Shown: positions 4,578-53,161 of the stretch, one piece after another
How the letters are laid out: each line of letters opens with the position of its first letter
Position numbering within the stretch: position 1 is the stretch's first letter
Assembly: GCA_964621615.1 (NCBI GenBank)
Contig: CAZUMW010000002.1
Coordinates: forward strand, 64,286 to 128,285
Direction: 5' to 3'
DNA length: 64,000 bases
From: an uncultured Thermodesulfobacteriota bacterium
GTDB lineage: Bacteria; Desulfobacterota; WTBG01; CAIYCZ01; CAIRTM01
The notes under the pieces: generated by a model
What the model saw: the letters and a program-made list of their open reading frames with translations, nothing else
The model's database searches: none
Told to the model about the DNA's origin: nothing
Translations under genes and position numbers: made by a program

Positions 4578-4887
4578 TAAAGCTGCTTTCCTTCCGGGTG
4601 GTTTCAGCTGTTTATGTTATAGCCGGTGTCAGTAGTGCCCAAAATAATGTACGAAGCCGGTTCGGGCGGGGCTCTGCAAAGCCCCCGCAACAAATTCAAT
4701 TTTTAGAATTTTTACACAGTTTTGTTATTTTTTACCTTATGATCTGAGGGCCAGTGTACGATGTCATATATATGAAGGCAACCGTTTTTTATTATTTACT
4801 TTTCGTTGTGTTCAGGTAAAATATTCCCCTCATTTAACCGGAAAGTATAAAAAAACTACCAGACAATATAATGTACAGGTGATTTCC

Positions 4888-13483: not shown

Positions 13484-15683
13484 TTATGTACAACAGCAGC
13501 TTTTCTGCCTGCTTTCTGTGTATACGCGGCCGGCGACAATCGATGCGGTGTGATCTGTTACCTGTTTGCGGGCCTCATTATTCCTCGGGGCTGCTGCGGG
13601 AAAATATTTTTTTGGTGTTCGCGTGGTTTCTTTATGCCCACGTACAATAGTCCCCAGAGTGTGCACAACGTCGGTGAGCCGATTCGCATGTTCAGCAACG
13701 AGGCTGCTTGTGTGCGCAGACTTTTGTGCCTGGTAAGTGGTTTCGGCGGTTATTGACTGCATTTGTTCAATTGAAGCTTTTATGCTGTTTACTCCATCCG
13801 ACTGGTCTTTGCTCGCATAGCTGACCTGATCGCTGTGTGTGGTGATCGTGTGTATGTTGCCGGAAATCTGCTGGAATACCGTTGCCGAGTTTTCTATGAC
13901 GCACACTCCGTTATCAGCCTGCTGGCGTGATTCTTCGATAAGCTTTTCGCTATTGCACGCTGCTTCGGCACACTGTTCAGAAAGGGTGGTAAATTCACGC
14001 GCTACGGTTGCAAAGGCATTTCCCGCCTCACCGGCCCGGGCGGCCTCAATGGTGGCGTTCAGGGCGAGTATTTTAGTGTCTCTTTCGGGGATGGTTAAAA
14101 CCCCTCGCCTTCAGGCGAAGAAAAGTTCCCCCGAAGTCTCCAAAGGAGACAAGGGTTATTGATTTTGAAGGCCTCATTTTGGTTCAATGAGACCAGGTTT
14201 TTTAATCAACACGGGCAAAAGTCGAATTCATTCGACGCCCGTGTCAAACCCCTCGACTTATAGTCGAGGGTAGTTTAGTGTGAAATGCAATGCTGTTAAT
14301 ATTCTGCACAACGGTCGCCGTTTCATCCGCCGATAGCTTTATGCTGTTTATGGCCATCATCATTTTTTCCATTTCGCTGTTGCCGCGACCCGCTGCATGC
14401 CATGCCTGCTGCGCCAATGTTGACATCTCGTCACAACTTTGTGCATTTTCACGTGCGGCTTCAGCTATTTCCTCCAAAGAGATGCTTACCGTCTGCAAGC
14501 GTTCGGTCTGCTCCTGCGCTGCGCCGGCAAGCTGGGTGCTTCGGTTGTCCATATCCTGTGACAGCACCAATAAATCGTGCGAATCGCTTGTCAGGCTGCT
14601 GTTGACTTTCTGCAGAATGCTGGTCGAATACAACGTCAGCAAAATGCCGAATACCAAAGAAGCGGCAGAACCCAGAACGCAGCCGACTGTGGAATTTATT
14701 TTTGCCCAGTGAGCGCTCTGCATGGATGATGCCACCGCCCCGTCAGCCTGTTTGTTATTATAGTCGATAATTTTGTTTACAAGTGCTAGCACGCCCTGCT
14801 GTTTTTCGAAGCACCGTACTTTCGCCTGCGTGTTCATGGCGTTATAGAGGCTTTCTGTTTTTGTTGCCATGGCGCGAAGCTGTTCAAACATGACGAACAT
14901 TTTTTCTGCTGCCGGCACCATATCCTGAAAATATGAAAGCGTGGCATCCTGTATGCGCCCCAGCGTTACCTGTTTGTGAATCGTGTGCACTGCCTCATAA
15001 AATTTTTTATGAAGCGGCACGATATCATTAACCAGCGTCTGCAGCTTTTTATTTTTGGAAGAAAAGGTGTCAACCCACCTGCCGAAGCTCGACTGAACGG
15101 CGCTCCCGGGGTCTTCAAGCCCGCTGTTTGTTTGTATGTAATACCAGACTTCGCTTTTGAGTTTGTAGAGGTCTCCGCGAAACTGCTCGATGTTTTTTTT
15201 GAGCACTACGGGGTTGGCAATATCCATTGTGTCGAGCTTGCATGAAAGCTCGAGAAAACGGCTGTTCTCCCGCTCCCACTGGTCAAGCGCGTTTGTCAGG
15301 TCAGCGAAAAGATTCTTTCCCTCAGTGGTAACCAGCAGCGGCTTATAATCACTGAGCGTTTTTTGATAGCGTTTCCTGAGGTGTTTGATCTGCGTATATT
15401 GTTCAGAGCGCTCACCGGGGCTGACATCAGGATCAAGCAGAACAAACTGCGCAATACGCATCTCCTGAACGATGTCATTTATCTTCATGGTGTAATATAC
15501 ACCGGGAAGCCGAACACGCCCGACCTCATATAGATGAGATTTGAGCTTGCCCGCCACTATCCATCCAACTGACCCCGCAAGCAGTGTGATTGCAGCAACC
15601 AGAAAAAAGCTGGTGAACAGCTTTGTCTGCAACCGCGTATTTTTTACATAGCCATAGACATTCAGTATTTTTTTGACCATCAC
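13484..15683 (-). pseudogene. Methyl-accepting chemotaxis protein interrupted by a 194-bp insertion (N-terminal part 14282-15683, signalling-domain part 13484-14071)
   Basis: The upstream ORF ends '...VVQNINSIAFHTK' and then reads into the insert to a stop. Minus-strand translation just beyond the insert continues 'DTKILALNATIEAARAGEAGNAFATVAREF...', the invariant MCP hairpin tip. The two halves are in different frames and separated by the insert. Confidence 0.75.
14072..14281. mobile_element. MITE-like non-autonomous insertion (~194 bp, no ORF) flanked by an 8-bp direct repeat TTTAGTGT
   Basis: Identical 8-mer at 14072-14079 and 14274-14281. The insert is packed with stem-loops (cgcc-ttca-ggcg; tctcc-aaa-ggaga; cacgggc...gcccgtg; ccctcgact-tat-agtcgaggg). 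The motif AAACCCCTCG occurs twice inside. It splits a conserved MCP coding motif. Confidence 0.6.
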
Positions 15684-47483: not shown

Positions 47484-47794
47484 AACAAGCGTGTCCAGAG
47501 TAAATTAAAGCAATTGAGCAAAAGCCGGTCCGGGCGGGCCTCTGGGCAGCCTCCGCCACATGAAGCCTCACTTCATGAACGGCACTATGCTGCCCAATGA
47601 AATATGTTACAGGCATTGTGCAGGGATTGCCCCGGGCAGCGCCTTCCGCCGGGCCGTGTGTGTGATGAATAGTAACGGCACGTACCGCTGCATAACCTCT
47701 TGAAGCTGGTGCGGGGGCATTGCAGAGCCCCGCCCGAAACGGCTTCGTTAGATTATTGTGGACACCAGTGACTGTAGAATAACAAGAGGCTAAA

Positions 47795-50700
47795 ATGTCC
47801 GGACAAAAAAAGTTCAGCTGCGTTCTGTTTGGAACCACAAGTCTTCTTATCCGCTGCGGCGATCTTATCAAACACCGCGGCCACACGATTACGGGAGTTG
47901 TTTCGTCCGACCCGGCGGTGTGCTCGTGGGCTGAAAAAAATTCGATTGCCTGCATTGCTCCCGGGGAAGATCCGGCCGGTTTTCTTGCCCGGGACCCTTT
48001 TGACGTGCTGTTCAGCATTATCAACCCGGCAATTCTGCAGCCGCCGATTCTGGACTTGCCTCGTAAGTATGCGATCAACTATCACGACGCCTTGCTGCCC
48101 CGGTATGCAGGCATGCATGCCACTTCCTGGGCACTCCTGAACCGGGAGCCGCAGCACGGCGTAACCTGGCACATTATGGAGCCGGGCGTCGACACGGGCG
48201 CTGTTTTGAAGCAGCGCTGCGTAACGGTAGGTGAGCGCGATACCGCCTTCAGCCTCAACCTTAAATGCTTTGAGGCTGCGATAAGCTCATTTTCAGAACT
48301 GCTGGAAGAGCTTGCAGCCGGCCGGGAAAAGCCCGTAGTACAGAAGAAGGATGAACGGTCCTACTTCGGCAAATATCGGCGCCCCGAGGCAGGGTGCGTG
48401 CTTTCATGGCGCCGAGGCCATGCAGAGATTGACGCCCTTGTCAGGGCGCTGGATTTCGGTTACGTGGAAAATCCTGTCGGGGTTCCTAAAATAGCAGTTG
48501 AAAACAGCTTTGTTATTGTTTCTAAATCACACATAGCAGGATCATCATCAGGCGCTGCACCCGGCACAATTGTAGCCTGTGATGATCGATCGGTGCAGGT
48601 GGCCACGGCCGGGCGCGATCTTGTTCTTGATCGTTTGCACGAACTCGATGGATCCCCGCTTCCCCTTCATGATTTTATGACCAGGTACCGGCTCAGCACA
48701 GGGGCCCGTCTTCCGGGACTTACCCCTGATACAGAGCACAGGCTTACAGCACTCTACAGTGATACCTGCAGGCATGAGGCCTACTGGGCCGAACAGCTGC
48801 TGCATGCGAGCCCGGTTTCGCTGACAGCAGATCGTTTGCTTTCGCCCTCCTGCCCGCAGCACCGGCTTGCCAGCGTTCTGCTGCGGGTGCCGAAACCGTT
48901 TATTCGTCTGAGCGAATCGGCCGGCGGCCCTGATCGCTGTCGGCAGCTGATTGCAGCATTTGCCGCATACATATCACGAGTCACCGAAGCTGATGATTTT
49001 GCCCTGGGATATATGCATGAGCAGCTGAGCGGCAGAATAGACGGTTTGGAAGCTTTTTTTGCATCGTGTGTGCCCCTTGTGCTGAAAGCCGGGCAGCAGG
49101 CATCCTTTGTAAATAGGATGGAACAAACGGCCGCAAGTGTTGCTGAGGCCGAGCGCCGCATTACCTATCCCAATGACCTGTTTGCCCGCTATCCTTGGCT
49201 GGAGCAGGCGGAGCCGGCTGTGCGGCGGGCCGCATTCCCGATCGCGGTGAGCAGGGTTCGCAGCCTCGATGACTATACAGCACCGCCGAACAGCCAGTGC
49301 GCGCTGGTTGTTTCCGACGATGTACGCGCCTGCCGGCTGGTGTTTGACACAAGCGTATTCAGCCGGGATTTTATGTACCGCATGCGGGAGCATCTTTGCT
49401 CTTTTATGCAGGCTGTCGGGGATAATCCCGACAGGCCAGTTGAAACACTTCCTCTTCTGACACCCGGCGAGCGCCAGAAAATAATAAACGAGTGGAACAG
49501 CACTGCAGCGGATTATGACCGGGGCGCCTGCATACACAGGCTTTTTGAAACACAGGCCTCTCGAAGCCCCCGCAATATCGCAACCGTGTTTGGCGGCACG
49601 GCGTTAACCTATGAGGAGCTTAACAAAAAAGCAAACCAGATTGCCTGGCACCTGCACAAAAAGGGGGTCGGACCCGGTGCGCTTGTCGGCATCAGCCTTG
49701 ACCGGTCTCATGAAATGATTATCGGTTTGCTGGCGATACTGAAAGCAGGGGGCGCCTATGTCCCGCTCGAGCCCTCATTTCCCCGTGAGCGGCTGCTGTC
49801 AATCGTGCGCAGTGCCGGAATCAGGAACATTCTCACGCAGAAAAAACACGCCGGTCTCTTTGCCGGGGCCGATGCCGTGCTGATTGAAACAGATCGTGAA
49901 GCAGAAACAATTGCACAGGAGAATACCGGGGAGGGCCCCTCGTGTGCAGCAGCGCCTGATACCACCGCCTATGTTATTTTCACCTCAGGCAGCACAGGTA
50001 AGCCGAAGGGCGCTGTTGTCGCACACCGGCCCGTTATAAACCTTATCCAGTGGGCACACAGAACCTTTTCGTTTTCTGAAAGAGATTCCGTTCTGTTTGT
50101 CACAGCGCTCAGCTTTGACCTGTCTGTTTTTGATGTATTCGGCCTGCTTGCCTGCGGCGGAACCATACACATTGTGAGCGACGAGCGCCGTAGAGATGTC
50201 AACTATCTTGTCGATATGATGCTGGAGGGGCGGATAACATTCTGGGATTCAGCGCCGGCAGCTCTTGATATGCTTGTTCCTGCTTTGCGGTCCAGGCAGC
50301 AGCTTTCAGATCCGGCTCTCAGGCTGGTTTTTCTAAGCGGGGACTGGATTCCTCTGTCATTACCCGATACGATAAGGCGGCATTTCCCCCGGGCAGAGGT
50401 AGTTGCGCTGGGCGGCGCGACAGAAGCAACGGTGTGGTCGAACTTTTTTCGCTTCGATGCAGTGGACCCGGCCTGGAAGAGCATTCCCTACGGGCGCCCT
50501 ATTCAGAACGCGCGCTATTATATCCTGGACCGGCGCCTTAACCCGTGTCCTGTCGGCGTTGCAGGAGATTTGTACATAGGCGGCGAGTGTCTGAGCAGCG
50601 GCTACCTCAACGAGCCGGAGCTGACAGCACAGAGCTTCCTGCATGATCCCTTCGCCGATCTGCCGGATGCACGAATGTACCGGACCGGAGACAGAGCCCG

Positions 50701-53161
50701 GTTTTATCCCGACGGCACAATAGAGTTTCTGGGAAGAAAAGACTTTCAGGTAAAAATCCGCGGCTATCGCATTGAGCTCGGCGAAGTGGAGTATGCGCTG
50801 AAAAGCCACCGTGGTGTGGCCGATGCCGTTGCTGCTGTCAGGAAAGACAGCGCGGGGGATCAAAAACTTGTTGCGTATGTCGTACCCCGCAGGGAAGCGC
50901 TTACAACGGCAAAGGGCCTGAAGGCACATGTGGGGGACTTTTTGCCTGATTATATGATACCCAACAGCATTGGATTCGTCGATGCGCTCCCGCTCACTGC
51001 AAACGGTAAAATCGATCGCAATGCACTCCCCTGGCCGGTACCCGCCCCGGCAGGCAGGACTGCCGGCTCCGCTCAGTCCGGACCGCACAGTGAAAACGCC
51101 AAGCGTGAAGCGGTGCTTTCCGTCATCAGGCAGGTGCTGCAGACAGAGGATATCGGACCTGACGATGATATGTTTGATTTCGGGGTCACCTCGTTGAATC
51201 TGATACAGATAGCAGAGATGCTCAAGGAGCGGTTCGGCGCCGCAGTCAGCGCGGAGACATTTCTGGATGCCCCGACGGCAGCGGGTATTGCCGCCCGGCT
51301 GGGAAACGGAAAGGCAGACGATGCGCCCCGGCCCTGTTGCGAGAAGCCCGGGGAGATTCGTGGCAGGGAGCCGGAGTTAGCGGTGAGCGCAAAAGCCGGC
51401 ACAGGAACCCAGGAAGTACTTTCCGTGATCAAGCAGGTGCTGCAGACAGAGGATATCGGACCTGACGATGATATGTTTGATTTCGGGGTCACCTCGTTGA
51501 ATCTGATACAGATAGCAGAGATGCTCAAGGAGCGGTTCGGCGCCGCAGTCAGCGCGGAGACATTTCTGGATTCCCCGACGGCAGGGGGTATTGCCGCCCG
51601 GCTGCAGCCTGCGGCGCCTGTAGCAGTTTCTTCGCCCGTTGCGCGGCATACCGCTGCGGCCGCTCCCGCCTCAATCCCGCTTGAGCACACCCTGCTGGAT
51701 CGAAATGCATATGTTCTCAGGGCAAGCAACCGCACTTTTTCTCCGGGAGGCCTTTCCCGAAAGAGCGTGGGGCGGCTCCTCTACCTTCTCCACCAGAAGG
51801 AAATCAACGGGGAGAAAAAATATCTATACCCTTCGGCCGGAGGGCTTAATGCAGTGCAGACATATCTGTATGCACACAAGGGCCGCATAGAGGGTATCCC
51901 TCACGGAATTTACTATTATCACCCTGTCGAGCATGCGCTGTACCGGATAACCGGCGATCCGGACATATCCCCCGCTATACATTTCCCCTTAAACCGGGAT
52001 AGCTTCGATGCGGCTGCGTTTTCTGTTTATTTCATCGCGCAGCTTGATGCAATAGAGCCTGTCTATACGGTCATGAGCAGAGAGCTGGTTACTCTTGATG
52101 CAGGATATATGACCCAGCTGCTGCAAAGCAGGCAGGAGGACATAGGGGTTAGACTTTGTCCGGTGAGCGGGGTTGACTTTGAGAGCATACGGCACTTTTT
52201 CCGGCTGAGCCCGGCACATATGTTTGTCCAGTGCCTCCTTGGCGGCCCTGCCGACTCATCCGCTCACCGCGCACAAGCACAAGATATAAAAACATATATA
52301 AAGACTACTGGGAGAAAGATACACGCTCACTTTCGCGAAGCCGACGGAGACCGGACATATCTGGACACCGACAGGATTGTTCAGTTTGAGCGCCTGAACG
52401 CCCTTTCCGAGGAGGAGCATGTATTGCTGCACCGCCGCCGGCTTCACCTGAGGACATTTACCAACGGCGCCCTTGGGCTAAAGCTTCCCCAGGGCCGTAT
52501 AGATGATGCAGAGTATATACTGCGGTCCACGCAGCGCAGCTACGAAAGCCGAACGGTGCCTTTTGTCTCCTTCAGCAGGTTCATGAAACTGCTTGGGCAG
52601 GAATCAATTGACGGCAAAGCCAGGCGCCTGTATCCTTCTATCAGCGGAACATATGCAGTGCACGCATATGTTTTTGTTAAGGAAAACGGTGTCGAGAATG
52701 TCGCCTCGGGCATATACCGCTATGAACCCGTTGAGCATTCGCTGCAGGCTGTCACGACTGGGCCTGCCTGCGACATTAAGGCGGCCCACTTTCCCGGAAA
52801 CCGGTCCTACTATAATCAGTCCAGATTTTCTCTTTTTCTCATTGCCGACCTGGAAAAGCTGCGGCCGAGCTTCGGCGAGGAGGCGCTCCACCTTGTAACG
52901 CTTGAAGCGGGGTGCATAGGGCAGCTGCTTCTGGACAGGCAGGCTGAATTTGATATGGGTGTTTGCTCCATCGGGGGCATGCGCTTTGATAAGATCAGAG
53001 ACGCCTTCAAGCTGAGCCGGGGGCAGATGCTCGTTCACAGCTTTGTGTGCGGTCCGGTCAGCCGGCTGCTTGCGGTCCCTGCCCACCGGAGGCTTATACC
53101 CCCGGCAGCGCCTCTTAAACACGGCATGCTGTCGCACTGGCTCAGGGGGCTTCGCTTGTGA
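47795..53161 (+). CDS. NRPS-like megaenzyme: formyltransferase (F), partial condensation-like region, adenylation (A), two tandem carrier domains (T-T), two tandem SagB/ThcOx-like nitroreductase (Ox) domains
   Basis: F domain: 'HDALLPRYAGMHATSWALLNRE...IMEPGVDTGAVL' (Fmt fold). C-A linker: 'LPLLTPGERQKIINEWNST'. A-domain cores: 'LTYEELNKKAN', 'YVIFTSGSTGKPKG', 'YRTGD', 'GRKDFQVKIRGYRIELGEVE', 'LPLTANGKIDR'. Two near-identical carrier domains carry 'DMFDFGVTSLNLIQIAE'. Two SagB-like repeats carry 'LYPSAGGLNAVQTYLYA' and 'LYPSISGTYAVHAYVFV'. Confidence 0.8.
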   Translation: MSGQKKFSCVLFGTTSLLIRCGDLIKHRGHTITGVVSSDPAVCSWAEKNSIACIAPGEDPAGFLARDPFDVLFSIINPAILQPPILDLPRKYAINYHDALLPRYAGMHATSWALLNREPQHGVTWHIMEPGVDTGAVLKQRCVTVGERDTAFSLNLKCFEAAISSFSELLEELAAGREKPVVQKKDERSYFGKYRRPEAGCVLSWRRGHAEIDALVRALDFGYVENPVGVPKIAVENSFVIVSKSHIAGSSSGAAPGTIVACDDRSVQVATAGRDLVLDRLHELDGSPLPLHDFMTRYRLSTGARLPGLTPDTEHRLTALYSDTCRHEAYWAEQLLHASPVSLTADRLLSPSCPQHRLASVLLRVPKPFIRLSESAGGPDRCRQLIAAFAAYISRVTEADDFALGYMHEQLSGRIDGLEAFFASCVPLVLKAGQQASFVNRMEQTAASVAEAERRITYPNDLFARYPWLEQAEPAVRRAAFPIAVSRVRSLDDYTAPPNSQCALVVSDDVRACRLVFDTSVFSRDFMYRMREHLCSFMQAVGDNPDRPVETLPLLTPGERQKIINEWNSTAADYDRGACIHRLFETQASRSPRNIATVFGGTALTYEELNKKANQIAWHLHKKGVGPGALVGISLDRSHEMIIGLLAILKAGGAYVPLEPSFPRERLLSIVRSAGIRNILTQKKHAGLFAGADAVLIETDREAETIAQENTGEGPSCAAAPDTTAYVIFTSGSTGKPKGAVVAHRPVINLIQWAHRTFSFSERDSVLFVTALSFDLSVFDVFGLLACGGTIHIVSDERRRDVNYLVDMMLEGRITFWDSAPAALDMLVPALRSRQQLSDPALRLVFLSGDWIPLSLPDTIRRHFPRAEVVALGGATEATVWSNFFRFDAVDPAWKSIPYGRPIQNARYYILDRRLNPCPVGVAGDLYIGGECLSSGYLNEPELTAQSFLHDPFADLPDARMYRTGDRARFYPDGTIEFLGRKDFQVKIRGYRIELGEVEYALKSHRGVADAVAAVRKDSAGDQKLVAYVVPRREALTTAKGLKAHVGDFLPDYMIPNSIGFVDALPLTANGKIDRNALPWPVPAPAGRTAGSAQSGPHSENAKREAVLSVIRQVLQTEDIGPDDDMFDFGVTSLNLIQIAEMLKERFGAAVSAETFLDAPTAAGIAARLGNGKADDAPRPCCEKPGEIRGREPELAVSAKAGTGTQEVLSVIKQVLQTEDIGPDDDMFDFGVTSLNLIQIAEMLKERFGAAVSAETFLDSPTAGGIAARLQPAAPVAVSSPVARHTAAAAPASIPLEHTLLDRNAYVLRASNRTFSPGGLSRKSVGRLLYLLHQKEINGEKKYLYPSAGGLNAVQTYLYAHKGRIEGIPHGIYYYHPVEHALYRITGDPDISPAIHFPLNRDSFDAAAFSVYFIAQLDAIEPVYTVMSRELVTLDAGYMTQLLQSRQEDIGVRLCPVSGVDFESIRHFFRLSPAHMFVQCLLGGPADSSAHRAQAQDIKTYIKTTGRKIHAHFREADGDRTYLDTDRIVQFERLNALSEEEHVLLHRRRLHLRTFTNGALGLKLPQGRIDDAEYILRSTQRSYESRTVPFVSFSRFMKLLGQESIDGKARRLYPSISGTYAVHAYVFVKENGVENVASGIYRYEPVEHSLQAVTTGPACDIKAAHFPGNRSYYNQSRFSLFLIADLEKLRPSFGEEALHLVTLEAGCIGQLLLDRQAEFDMGVCSIGGMRFDKIRDAFKLSRGQMLVHSFVCGPVSRLLAVPAHRRLIPPAAPLKHGMLSHWLRGLRL
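51097..51612 (+). repeat. Tandem direct repeat (~195 bp units, >95% identical) encoding the duplicated carrier domain
   Basis: 51112-51306 and 51418-51612 are nearly identical at the nucleotide level (gtgctttccgtcatcaggcaggtgctgcagacagaggatatcggacctgacgatgatatg...). Confidence 0.8.

What the first reader, a model, noticed from the sequence alone, without database searches (positions are those of the whole stretch)
13484..15683. Chemoreceptor gene split exactly inside its invariant signalling hairpin by a 194-bp MITE-like element with an 8-bp target-site duplication
Translation across both sides reconstructs '...SIAFHTK | ILALNATIEAARAGEAG...'. The insert is bounded by direct TTTAGTGT copies, carries no ORF and is almost entirely stem-loops; the same 10-mer (AAACCCCTCG) precedes two of the hairpins. 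This looks like a miniature non-autonomous transposon, or possibly a structured RNA-encoding insertion, that has made the MCP a pseudogene. A self-splicing element is unlikely at this size.
Basis: seen in the sequence. Interest (0 to 1): 0.6.

Follow-up and report, generated by a model that had tools for sequence, protein, structure and literature searches.

The report
Mini IS200-type transposon splits chemoreceptor gene
A 202-bp gene-less derivative of an IS200/IS605-type (ISDra9-like) insertion sequence has landed in the tip-coding part of a chemoreceptor gene. It is an ordinary member of a known class of single-strand transposons, and the flanking 8-bp repeat is its target and end motif, not a target-site duplication.

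Summary
A minus-strand chemoreceptor (MCP) gene is interrupted exactly at ...AFHTK|ILALNATIEAARAGEAG by 194 bp lying between two TTTAGTGT copies. The rebuilt protein is colinear with intact homologues.

The insert is not a MITE with inverted repeats and an 8-bp target duplication. It is a PATE, a non-autonomous IS200/IS605-family element.

- Its left end and right end match the ends of 535-540-bp autonomous elements in many phyla. These encode a 146-aa Y1 transposase (Pfam Y1_Tnp 4e-41; NCBIfam IS200/IS605 6e-42; PGAP name 'ISDra9 family').
- Across 51 left and 78 right junctions of one relative, and five identical copies of another, the left TTA(A/G)TGT and the right GTTTAGT never vary. The DNA beyond them is random.
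- So the 'duplication' is a target motif (TTAGT) next to the element's start (GT), and the element's own terminal motif (TTAGT) next to flank.
- The repeated 10-mer AAACCCCTCG is a guide tetranucleotide (AAAC) plus the foot of the hairpin at each end.

Likely mechanism: peel-and-paste single-strand transposition, with the window + strand as top strand, no duplication and scarless excision. No transposase gene and no second copy lie in the window. New member of a known kind; low interest.

The parts
14280..15683 (-). Native 5' part of the chemoreceptor (MCP) gene: 4HB_MCP sensor, transmembrane segments and the first half of the signalling domain. The ORF reads on into the element and stops at 14244.
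   Evidence: (P0001, 478 aa, PF12729)
13484..14077 (-). Native 3' part of the MCP gene (TK ILALNATIEAARAGEAG... to its stop codon). No further stop or frameshift.
14073..14077 (+). Target motif (TAM, or left cleavage site) TTAGT in the left flank. The T at 14072 extends it to TTTAGT.
   Evidence: Invariant TTA(A/G)T followed by GT at 51 + >25 other left junctions. The insertion-3'-of-target rule is from PMC5027513.
14078..14279 (+). The element itself: a 202-nt PATE (non-autonomous IS200/IS605, ISDra9-like). The top strand is the window + strand. Boundaries are uncertain by about 1 nt.
   Evidence: Left end and right end are homologous to autonomous elements. RE conservation ends 9 nt after the hairpin. 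Exactly 202 bp must be removed to restore the reading frame.
14080..14090 (+). Left-end 5' mini stem-loop CTC-TTTC-GGGG. It is kept in relatives with changes (CCCC-GAC-GGGG, CCCG-TT-CGGG, CCCT-TTC-AGGG).
   Evidence: read from sequences
14098..14120 (+). Left-end guide AAAC (14098-14101) plus the left-end hairpin CCCTCGCC-TTCA-GGCGAAG. The hairpin carries a conserved C.A mismatch on the top strand.
14136..14150 (+). Internal hairpin GTCTCC-AAA-GGAGAC. Equivalent hairpins occur in L125 (GTCCC...GGGAC) and L127 (GTCCCC...GGGGAC). It occupies the position of the start-codon hairpin GTCGC-TAT-GCGAC of the autonomous elements.
   Evidence: read from sequences; the functional equivalence is inferred
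14170..14194 (+). Internal hairpin GGCCTCATT...AATGAGACC, specific to this copy. The interior varies among PATE subfamilies.
   Evidence: (no other copy of this 20-mer in JGI metagenomes)
14210..14243 (+). Right-end proximal hairpin. The inner part GTCGAA-TTCA-TTCGAC is conserved in all relatives and lies inside the tnpA 3' coding region of autonomous copies. The outer stem CACGGGC/GCCCGTG is replaced by different complementary arms in related PATEs.
14246..14270 (+). Right-end guide AAAC (14246-14249) plus the right-end hairpin CCCTCGAC-TTATA-GTCGAGGG.
   Evidence: compensatory changes in 3 of 8 pairs, 96.6% paired, 0/500 shuffles
14275..14279 (+). Transposon-encoded end motif (TEM, or right cleavage site) TTAGT, the last bases of the element. 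With the T at 14274 it reads TTTAGT.
   Evidence: Invariant T.GTT(T/C)AGT in 78 + >30 right junctions; the next base is variable.

Best explanation
The insert is a PATE (palindrome-associated transposable element): a 202-nt, gene-less derivative of an IS200-group insertion sequence of the IS200/IS605 family. Its nearest named relative is the 'ISDra9 family'.

**Shown:**
- Its two ends are the left and right ends of that family.
- Each end has a subterminal hairpin preceded by the tetranucleotide AAAC.
- The element is preceded by TTAGT in the flank and itself ends in TTAGT.

**Inferred from the family's established mechanism:**
- A Y1 (HUH) transposase TnpA, supplied in trans from an autonomous copy elsewhere in the genome, excised the top strand (window + strand) of a donor copy as a single-stranded circle.
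- TnpA pasted the circle 3' of a TTAGT on exposed single-stranded DNA, probably the lagging-strand template at a replication fork.
- The target pentamer here is the antisense of the codons ACT AA(A), Thr-Lys, in the MCP hairpin tip.
- TnpA reads the target and the right end through non-canonical pairing with the AAAC 'guides' at the hairpin feet. This is why target and element terminus carry the same motif and mimic a direct repeat.
- Nothing is duplicated.

**Consequences:**
- The insertion truncates the MCP after residue 471-472 of about 664, inside the invariant signalling tip, so the receptor is inactive.
- Excision in this family is scarless, so the gene could be restored exactly if a cognate TnpA is present. 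This is not shown.
For: 1. **Homologous ends.**
   - BLASTN of the insert against 119 loci found with the right-end hairpin pattern shows 84-93% identity over window 14071-14127 (left end), and a separate match over the right end.
   - 18 more loci were found with the left-end 20-mer.
2. **Autonomous relatives.** Elements of 535-540 bp carry the same ends and encode a 146-aa protein.
   - It matches Pfam Y1_Tnp at E = 3.8e-41 and NCBIfam NF033573 (IS200/IS605 transposase) at E = 6.2e-42 (142.8 bits, cut-off 55).
   - Its closest solved structures are ISDra2 and IS608 TnpA.
   - A 68%-identical copy on a Rickettsia-endosymbiont plasmid, with the same ends, is annotated 'ISDra9 family'.
3. **No TSD.**
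   - 51 distinct left junctions in one genome have invariant TTAATGT and random sequence from -8.
   - 78 right junctions have invariant TGGTTTAGT and random sequence from position 11; position 10 is T71/G6/A1.
   - Five otherwise 100%-identical copies in an Arenicellales MAG differ only from -8 leftwards and from position 10 rightwards.
   - Other lineages show TTAGT + GT on the left and TT(T/C)AGT on the right.
4. **Geometry typical of the family and of PATEs.**
   - No terminal inverted repeats.
   - The hairpin is farther from the 5' end (about 24 nt) than from the 3' end (9 nt).
   - The two hairpins share sequence (PMC3119063).
5. **Guide rule.**
   - IS608 uses target TTAC with guide AAAG (PMC5027513). 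Here it is TTAG with AAAC at both ends.
   - Three lineages with target TTAAT have left-end guide AAAT: Desulfobacterium, L087, and the Rickettsia plasmid.
   - Guide RAA pairs with TTY of the end motif: G-C in three PATEs, A-T in the window.
6. **Hairpin under selection.** The right-end hairpin keeps pairing through compensatory changes.
7. **Other gene-less relatives.** Elements of 176-296 bp with the same ends and different hairpin-rich interiors exist.
8. **Strand composition.** The + strand has positive GC skew through most of the window. This is expected if the top strand sits on the lagging-strand template.
9. **Literature.** The family makes no target-site duplication, has near-identical TAM and TEM, excises scarlessly and spawns PATEs (PMC10055086, PMC5027513, PMC3119063).
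Against: - No tnpA and no second copy of the element occur in the 64-kb window. So mobilisation in this host is unproven.
- The interior 20-mer of this particular copy was not found in JGI metagenomes.
- The exact cleavage register cannot be fixed. The 8-nt repeat allows nine registers, and the first base of the right flank is strongly T-biased in the Desulfobacterium family. The boundary could therefore be 1 nt off.
- Guide/target covariation has exceptions: L073 and L133 have TTAAT with AAAC, and many right ends have A opposite C.
- GC skew is weak (0.00 to 0.06).
Confidence: 0.9

Rival explanations
1. Classical MITE: a deletion derivative of a DDE-transposase insertion sequence, which cut the target with an 8-bp stagger and so created an 8-bp target-site duplication.
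For: A perfect 8-bp direct repeat sits exactly at the insert boundaries, and removing one copy restores the gene. The insert is small and has no ORF.
Against: - The ends are not inverted repeats: CTCTTTCGGGG... versus the reverse complement CTACCCTCGAC....
- The 'duplicated' bases are the same at more than 100 other insertion sites in many genomes, while neighbouring bases vary.
- The ends belong to elements encoding a Y1/HUH transposase, not a DDE enzyme.
Confidence: 0.02
2. REP/BIME-type repeat handled by a domesticated, single-copy REP-associated tyrosine transposase (RAYT), rather than by a mobile IS200-type TnpA.
For: RAYTs are relatives of IS200/IS605 TnpA and act on hairpin repeats. Single-hairpin derivatives of about 55-65 nt exist in this family (L049, L073, L077, L026). 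The source genome's transposase is unknown.
Against: - The related transposase scores 142.8 bits on the IS200/IS605 model but only 25.3 bits (cut-off 80) on the RAYT model.
- In relatives, tnpA lies inside the left-end/right-end pair and is multi-copy. There are five identical copies in one MAG and 20 matching places on one plasmid.
- The window element has distinct left and right ends, not an inverted REP pair.
Confidence: 0.04
3. An RNA-level element: a small intron, a translational-bypass ('hop') cassette using ACACUAAA as take-off and landing sites, or an inserted structured-RNA gene such as a guide (omega) RNA for a TnpB/IscB nuclease.
For: - The fold is very stable, and more so on the mRNA-sense strand (z = -7.35; several G.U pairs there are A.C on the other strand).
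- A hairpin starts 3 nt after the first ACACUAAA.
- PATEs 'often encode omega RNAs' (PMC10055086).
Against: - No Rfam family matches, even at E <= 10 (best E = 0.51).
- The same ends occur mostly outside genes and in either orientation at other sites.
- The conserved parts are exactly the TnpA-type left-end and right-end hairpins, while the interior is not conserved among relatives.
- The autonomous relatives carry tnpA only, with no tnpB or iscB.
- 202 nt is far beyond any known bypass gap (own knowledge: 50 nt in T4 gene 60).
- The element's top strand is antisense to the MCP gene.
Confidence: 0.03

Closest known systems
ISDra9-like IS200-group insertion sequences (IS200/IS605 family)
   Same: Left end (GT-CYCTTTCGGGG-ATGGTTRAAAC-CCCTCGCC hairpin), right end (GTCGA..TCGAC hairpin, AAAC-CCCTCGAC hairpin, T.GTTYAGT terminus), target TTA(G/A)T..
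   Different: The window element has no tnpA. About 90 nt of unrelated hairpin-rich sequence replaces the roughly 440-bp gene. It depends on a transposase in trans that was not located.
PATEs (palindrome-associated transposable elements; Haloquadratum walsbyi, PMC3119063; Geobacillus stearothermophilus, PMC10055086)
   Same: No inverted terminal repeats, near-terminal palindromes similar to each other, no target duplication, too short to encode a transposase, ends shared with IS605-type elements, and a conserved terminal oligonucleotide. 'Terminal-only' derivatives of about 52 nt also exist in this family.
   Different: Bacterial, IS200-group (tnpA-only) parentage rather than IS1341/TnpB-type. 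No evidence for an omega RNA.
IS608 (Helicobacter pylori) and ISDra2 (Deinococcus radiodurans), the mechanistic models
   Same: Y1 TnpA homology (PDB 2A6M, 2VHG, 2XM3 at E = 1e-20 to 1e-25). Subterminal hairpins. A guide tetranucleotide at the hairpin foot: IS608 TTAC/AAAG, here TTAG/AAAC.
   Different: Those carry tnpB and are 1.3-1.8 kb (own knowledge). The target here is TTAGT. TAM and TEM are identical in this copy, which produces the pseudo-duplication.
IS200 of Salmonella (707 bp)
   Same: tnpA-only organisation. Left-end hairpins, one of which overlaps the translation start in the autonomous relatives (GTCGC-TATG-CGAC; compare the IS200 5'UTR stem-loop, PMC4513863).
   Different: The relatives found here are about 170 bp shorter. 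There is no sequence similarity of the ends to IS200 and no match to IS200-related Rfam families.
MITEs of DDE-type insertion sequences
   Same: Small, non-coding, non-autonomous, able to disrupt genes.
   Different: MITEs have terminal inverted repeats and create site-specific target duplications. This element has neither.

Membership tests
IS200/IS605-family non-autonomous element (PATE) | No terminal inverted repeats | tested here: met
   The ends CTCTTTCGGGG... and ...GTCGAGGGTAGTTTAGT are not reverse complements of each other (no inverted-repeat pair reported for the termini).
IS200/IS605-family non-autonomous element (PATE) | Subterminal hairpins at both ends, similar to each other, farther from the 5' end than from the 3' end | tested here: met
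   Left-end hairpin 14102-14120 (24 nt from the start); right-end hairpin 14250-14270 (9 nt from the end); shared AAACCCCTCG. The right-end hairpin keeps pairing through compensatory changes. Geometry as described in PMC3119063.
IS200/IS605-family non-autonomous element (PATE) | Ends homologous to those of autonomous elements that encode a Y1 (HUH) TnpA | tested here: met
   PF01797 at 3.8e-41; NF033573 at 142.8 bits against a cut-off of 55.
IS200/IS605-family non-autonomous element (PATE) | Insertion 3' of a fixed 4-6-nt target, no target-site duplication, conserved terminal oligonucleotide | tested here: met
   Left TTA(A/G)T+GT and right TT(T/C)AGT are invariant at more than 100 junctions while the flanks are random. 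In the window copy alone the two readings cannot be told apart.
IS200/IS605-family non-autonomous element (PATE) | Too short to encode a transposase; no ORF | tested here: met
   The element is 202 nt; no ORF of 40 aa or more lies within it.
IS200/IS605-family non-autonomous element (PATE) | Guide sequence at the hairpin foot that covaries with the target and end motifs | tested here: inconclusive
   TTAG/AAAC mirrors IS608 TTAC/AAAG. TTAAT goes with AAAT in three lineages. GAAC goes with TTCAGT against AAAC with TTTAGT. Exceptions are L073, L133 and many A.C cases.
IS200/IS605-family non-autonomous element (PATE) | Top strand on the lagging-strand template | tested here: inconclusive
   GC skew of the + strand is +0.01 to +0.06 over 1-52 kb. 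The direction agrees, but the signal is weak and the origin of replication is unknown.
IS200/IS605-family non-autonomous element (PATE) | A cognate TnpA in the same genome; precise excision and a single-stranded circle junction | not testable with these tools
   No tnpA in the window.
MITE of a DDE-type IS | Terminal inverted repeats matching a parental IS | tested here: not met
   the parental elements encode Y1 TnpA.
MITE of a DDE-type IS | Target-site duplication whose sequence differs from site to site | tested here: not met
REP/BIME with RAYT | The transposase is a RAYT (NCBIfam NF047646), single-copy and flanked by the repeats | tested here: not met
   25.3 bits against a cut-off of 80. 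In relatives, tnpA is multi-copy and lies inside the left-end/right-end pair. Not testable for the source genome itself.
Known structured RNAs or self-splicing introns (Rfam 15) | Match to a covariance model | tested here: not met
   Best hit E = 0.51, far below any gathering score.
Methyl-accepting chemotaxis protein (host gene) | 4HB_MCP sensor plus MCPsignal domain with the EAARAGE tip, colinear with homologues | tested here: met
   (homologues carry PF12729 and PF00015; invariant N474 A475 E478-G486).

The most novel reading that the evidence does not exclude
The element is more than a dead insertion. One version: scarless, replication-coupled excision by a resident ISDra9-like TnpA makes it a reversible on/off switch of this chemoreceptor. 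The other: the hairpin-rich interior, whose stems are maintained in related gene-less copies (L125, L137, L138), encodes a trans-acting RNA, for example a guide RNA for a TnpB/IscB-type nuclease or an antisense regulator. The intact state of both gene halves is compatible with the switch version but equally with a recent insertion.
Probability: 0.07. Interest if true: 0.45.

Novelty: new member of a known kind. Interest (0 to 1): 0.2.

Why it matters
Mostly as a correction and an annotation lesson.

- An IS200/IS605-type element whose target motif equals its own terminal motif looks exactly like a MITE with a target-site duplication. Automated or by-eye calls of a 'TSD' can therefore misassign the transposition mechanism.
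- For this genome it identifies one chemoreceptor as inactivated by a potentially reversible (scarless-excision) insertion.
- The by-product may interest mobile-DNA specialists: a very compact (535-540 bp), phylogenetically widespread ISDra9-like family with abundant gene-less and single-hairpin derivatives.
- It does not open a new question.

Tried and rejected
- **Rfam scan** of 13900-14450 at E <= 10: nothing credible.
- **Repeats within the window:** no second copy, and no left-end or right-end motif even with 6 mismatches.
- **tblastn** of the related TnpA against the window: no hit.
- **Pfam** on 20 large window ORFs: no transposase or nuclease of any kind.
- **blastn** of the insert against PLSDB plasmids: no match.
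- **Two-10-mer pattern** in viral contigs: two chance hits only.
- **Interior 20-mer** in JGI metagenomes: no hit.
- **Exact look-ups** of the 479-aa ORF and of the ACR3 ORF failed because of start-codon choice. The 478-aa version (P0001) led only to a 2.8-kb Logan contig.
- **L088**, with an apparent 2.1-kb left-to-right spacing, is a scaffold gap of Ns and not a tnpB-carrying element.
- **Promoter/terminator scan:** uninformative.
- **Considered and rejected:**
  - Group I/II intron: no ends or domains fit, and no Rfam match.
  - Integron attC: the core sites do not fit.
  - IS110/bridge-RNA, IS91 or Helitron ends: no supporting feature.
  - Simple Watson-Crick pairing of AAAC with GTTT in the right-end tail: this pairing is not conserved in relatives.
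Full report
**1. The observation.**

The region holds one methyl-accepting chemotaxis protein gene on the minus strand. The upstream ORF (15683->14244) ends ...VVQNINSIAFHTK and then reads LPSTISRGV-stop inside the insert. Translation from 14077 down to 13484 gives TKILALNATIEAARAGEAGNAFATVAREF..., 197 residues to a stop, with no further damage.

TTTAGTGT lies at 14072-14079 and again at 14274-14281, with 194 bp between the two copies. Joining the halves with one octamer gives a 664-aa protein. A search of 5.8 billion proteins found the truncated 478-aa product itself (P0001, 100% identity). It also found intact MCPs of 46% (P0002), 39% (P0003) and about 31% identity. In the alignment there is no gap anywhere near the junction: AFHTK-ILALNATIEAARAGEAG against SFKTK-MLSLNASIEAARAGEAG and AFQTN-LLALNAAVEAARAGEAG.

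The insert is also present, base for base, in an independent Logan contig. AAACCCCTCG occurs exactly twice in 64 kb, both times in the insert. The insert folds far better than shuffled sequence on either strand, as RNA or as DNA.

**2. What the insert is related to.**

- Nothing in Rfam matches.
- The window has no second copy.
- Plasmids and viral contigs gave nothing.
- One scan of 185,579 species genomes was run with the hairpin nearest 14281 (AAACCCCTCGAC-N5-GTCGAGGG).

A handful of those loci are perfect palindromes that look like terminators. The rest share much more than the pattern:
- The hairpin is followed by T(G/A/C)GTT(T/C)AGT and then by unrelated DNA.
- It is preceded by a second small hairpin (GTCGA-TTTNAAA-TCGAC).
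- In many loci it is also preceded by the end of an ORF...QEYIQEQEGEP..DDSRF.IDP*.

BLASTN of the insert against these loci also matched its other end (window 14071-14127) at 84-93% identity, in the same orientation and a few hundred bases upstream of the hairpin. So both ends of the insert are the two ends of a repeated element found in:
- Desulfobacterium (dozens of copies)
- Syntrophales
- Arenicellales
- Burkholderiales
- Salinibacter
- Verrucomicrobia
- Nitrospinota
- Chitinispirillaceae
- other lineages

**3. The autonomous form.**

Copies of 535-540 bp (L069, L074 and its four twins, L087, L096, L131) contain one ORF of 146 aa between these ends.
- It matches Pfam Y1_Tnp ('Transposase IS200 like') at 3.8e-41.
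- It matches NCBIfam NF033573 (IS200/IS605 family transposase, equivalog) at 6.2e-42. The RAYT model scores only 25 bits against a cut-off of 80.
- Its solved relatives are the TnpA proteins of ISDra2 and IS608.
- A 68%-identical copy on a Rickettsia-endosymbiont plasmid has the same end architecture. PGAP annotates it as 'IS200/IS605-like element ISDra9 family transposase'.

The window insert keeps about 50 nt of the left end and about 62 nt of the right end and has about 90 nt of unrelated hairpins in between. Other gene-less versions of 176-296 bp with the same ends and other interiors are common in metagenomes. L125, L137 and L138 have the same overall layout as the window copy. This is what the literature calls a PATE: no inverted terminal repeats, near-terminal palindromes, no target duplication, too short to encode a transposase, ends shared with IS605-type transposons (PMC3119063; also PMC10055086).

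**4. The '8-bp target-site duplication'.**

If it were a duplication, its sequence would change from site to site. It does not.
- In the Desulfobacterium genome, 51 different left junctions all read TTAATGT immediately before CCCTTTC. Information drops to about 0.1-0.6 bit from position -8 outwards.
- There, 78 different right junctions all read TGGTTTAGT after the hairpin. Position 10 is T71/G6/A1 and everything beyond is random.
- Five copies in one Arenicellales MAG are identical from TTAGTGT through ...TCGTTTAGT. They differ only outside that block, including at position 10 (G, A, T, T, T).
- Other lineages have TTAGT+GT or TTAAT+GT on the left and TTTAGT or TTCAGT on the right.

Hence the left motif is the family's target (the transposon-adjacent motif) plus the first bases of the element, and the right motif is the element's own terminus (the transposon-encoded motif). 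This is the published behaviour of the family:
[quoted passage not shown] In the window, conservation of the right end stops 9 nt after the hairpin, and exactly 202 bp must leave to restore the frame. The best register is therefore:
- target TTAGT at 14073-14077;
- element 14078-14279 (GTCTCTTTC...TAGTTTAGT);
- right flank starting GTGAAATGC.

Of the eight repeated bases, six (TTTAGT) follow from TAM equalling TEM. The remaining GT is the element's start on one side and flank on the other. A 1-nt shift of the register cannot be excluded.

**5. The repeated 10-mer and the stem-loops.**

AAACCCCTCG is AAAC plus the 5' arm of the hairpin, at the left end (14098) and the right end (14246). In IS608 the target TTAC is read by the 'guide' AAAG located 5' to the hairpin foot (PMC5027513). 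Here TTAG goes with AAAC, the same pattern with the G/C pair swapped.

- Three separate lineages whose target is TTAAT have AAAT as the left guide, while their right guide stays AAAC with TTAGT. These are Desulfobacterium, L087 and the Rickettsia plasmid.
- RNAalifold on four PATEs pairs guide RAA with TTY of the end motif: G-C in three of them, A-T in the window.
- There are exceptions (L073, L133, many A.C cases), so I call this suggestive, not proven.
- The right-end hairpin itself keeps pairing through compensatory changes: 3 of 8 pairs, 13 cells, 96.6% paired, 0 of 500 shuffles.
- The inner GTCGAA...TTCGAC hairpin is conserved, and its outer stem is rebuilt from different sequences in L125 and L137.

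The structure is thus explained by the single-stranded DNA hairpins that TnpA recognises, plus interior hairpins of unknown (possibly no) function. The slightly better fold of the mRNA-sense strand comes from G.U pairs that are A.C on the top strand. One of these, in the left-end hairpin, is a family-wide conserved irregularity.

**6. Mechanism (inferred from the family).**

A Y1 TnpA made elsewhere in the genome excises the top strand as a single-stranded circle and pastes it 3' of TTAGT on exposed single-stranded DNA. The second strand is filled in by replication. The top strand is the window + strand, antisense to the MCP gene. The + strand has positive GC skew over most of the window, which fits, weakly, a top strand lying on the lagging-strand template.

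The MCP here has the unusual tip sequence H-T-K (CAC ACT AAA) where homologues have Q-T-N. The antisense of those codons supplies the TTTAGT target. The receptor is cut in its invariant signalling hairpin and must be inactive. Both halves are otherwise intact, so the insertion is recent or reversible. Excision in this family is scarless (PMC10055086). Whether this host has the transposase is unknown: none is in the window. No intact allele of this MCP is in the protein database, although the organism occurs in at least three sequencing runs.

**7. Rivals.**

- A DDE-type MITE with a true duplication is contradicted by the absence of inverted repeats and by point 4.
- A REP/RAYT system is unlikely because the related transposase is a clear IS200/IS605 equivalog. 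It is also multi-copy inside its own ends.
- RNA-level readings (intron, bypass, guide RNA) have no positive support.

**8. Novelty and score.**

This is a new member of a known kind. Interest is low (0.2). The useful points are:
- the pseudo-TSD pitfall;
- the compact, widespread ISDra9-like family uncovered on the way.

Noticed in passing
L069:2664-3198; L074, L067, L076, L084, L106; L087; L096; L131: The autonomous relatives are only 535-540 bp, shorter than the 707-bp IS200 that PMC4513863 calls the smallest autonomous IS. The tnpA stop codon overlaps the right-end guide, and one right-end hairpin lies inside the coding region (..DDSRF.ID..). Five 100%-identical copies at different sites in one Arenicellales MAG suggest recent activity. 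Not checked against ISfinder.
   Followed up: partly
L004-L122 (LT984854-LT984881, 'uncultured Desulfobacterium sp. TRIP AH-1'): There is a massive expansion (at least 78 distinct right junctions among the loci returned) of a 307-bp internally deleted derivative. It keeps only the first ~35 and last ~25 codons of tnpA. Many scaffolds end about 60 nt inside it, so it breaks the assembly.
   Followed up: partly
L049:6820-6890, L073:160-240, L077, L026: Single-hairpin mini-elements of about 55-65 nt: the 5' part of the left end is fused directly to the right-end hairpin through the shared AAACCCCTCG. This is as expected from repeat-mediated core deletion (compare the 52-bp terminal-only PATEs of Haloquadratum, PMC3119063). 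They look like REP sequences.
   Followed up: no
window 14072-14077 / 14274-14282 (minus-strand codons CAC ACT AAA): This MCP has H-T-K at the hairpin tip where five of the six aligned MCPs have Q-T-N or K-T-K. The antisense of these unusual codons is what creates the TTTAGT target for the element.
   Followed up: partly
window 4651-4699 and 47700-47748: A 49-nt inverted repeat, 90% complementary, with arms 43 kb apart. Each arm lies just upstream of a long ORF (the LysM/SLT protein at 4879; the NRPS-like ORF at 47795) and contains a GC-rich hairpin. It may be another small repeated intergenic element.
   Followed up: no
window 47795-53161 (+), repeats at 51113-51301 and 51416-51604: A 1788-aa NRPS-like ORF carries formyltransferase, condensation, AMP-binding, two PP-binding and nitroreductase domains. 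The 189-nt direct repeat (97% identical) falls in the region holding the two carrier-protein (PP-binding) domains.
   Followed up: partly
L141 (SRR7048224), L001 (SRR7048225), L142 (SRR7048228): The same organism, with identical proteins, appears in at least three runs of one sequencing project. The interrupted MCP contig was seen in two samples, and no intact allele is in the protein database.
   Followed up: partly
L143 (AP029036.1 38888-39822) and 19 more places in that plasmid: Plasmids of a Rickettsia endosymbiont of Nesidiocoris tenuis carry many copies of the same IS family (20 and 12 matching places on the two plasmids). The target is TTAAT and the left-end guide is AAAT.
   Followed up: partly
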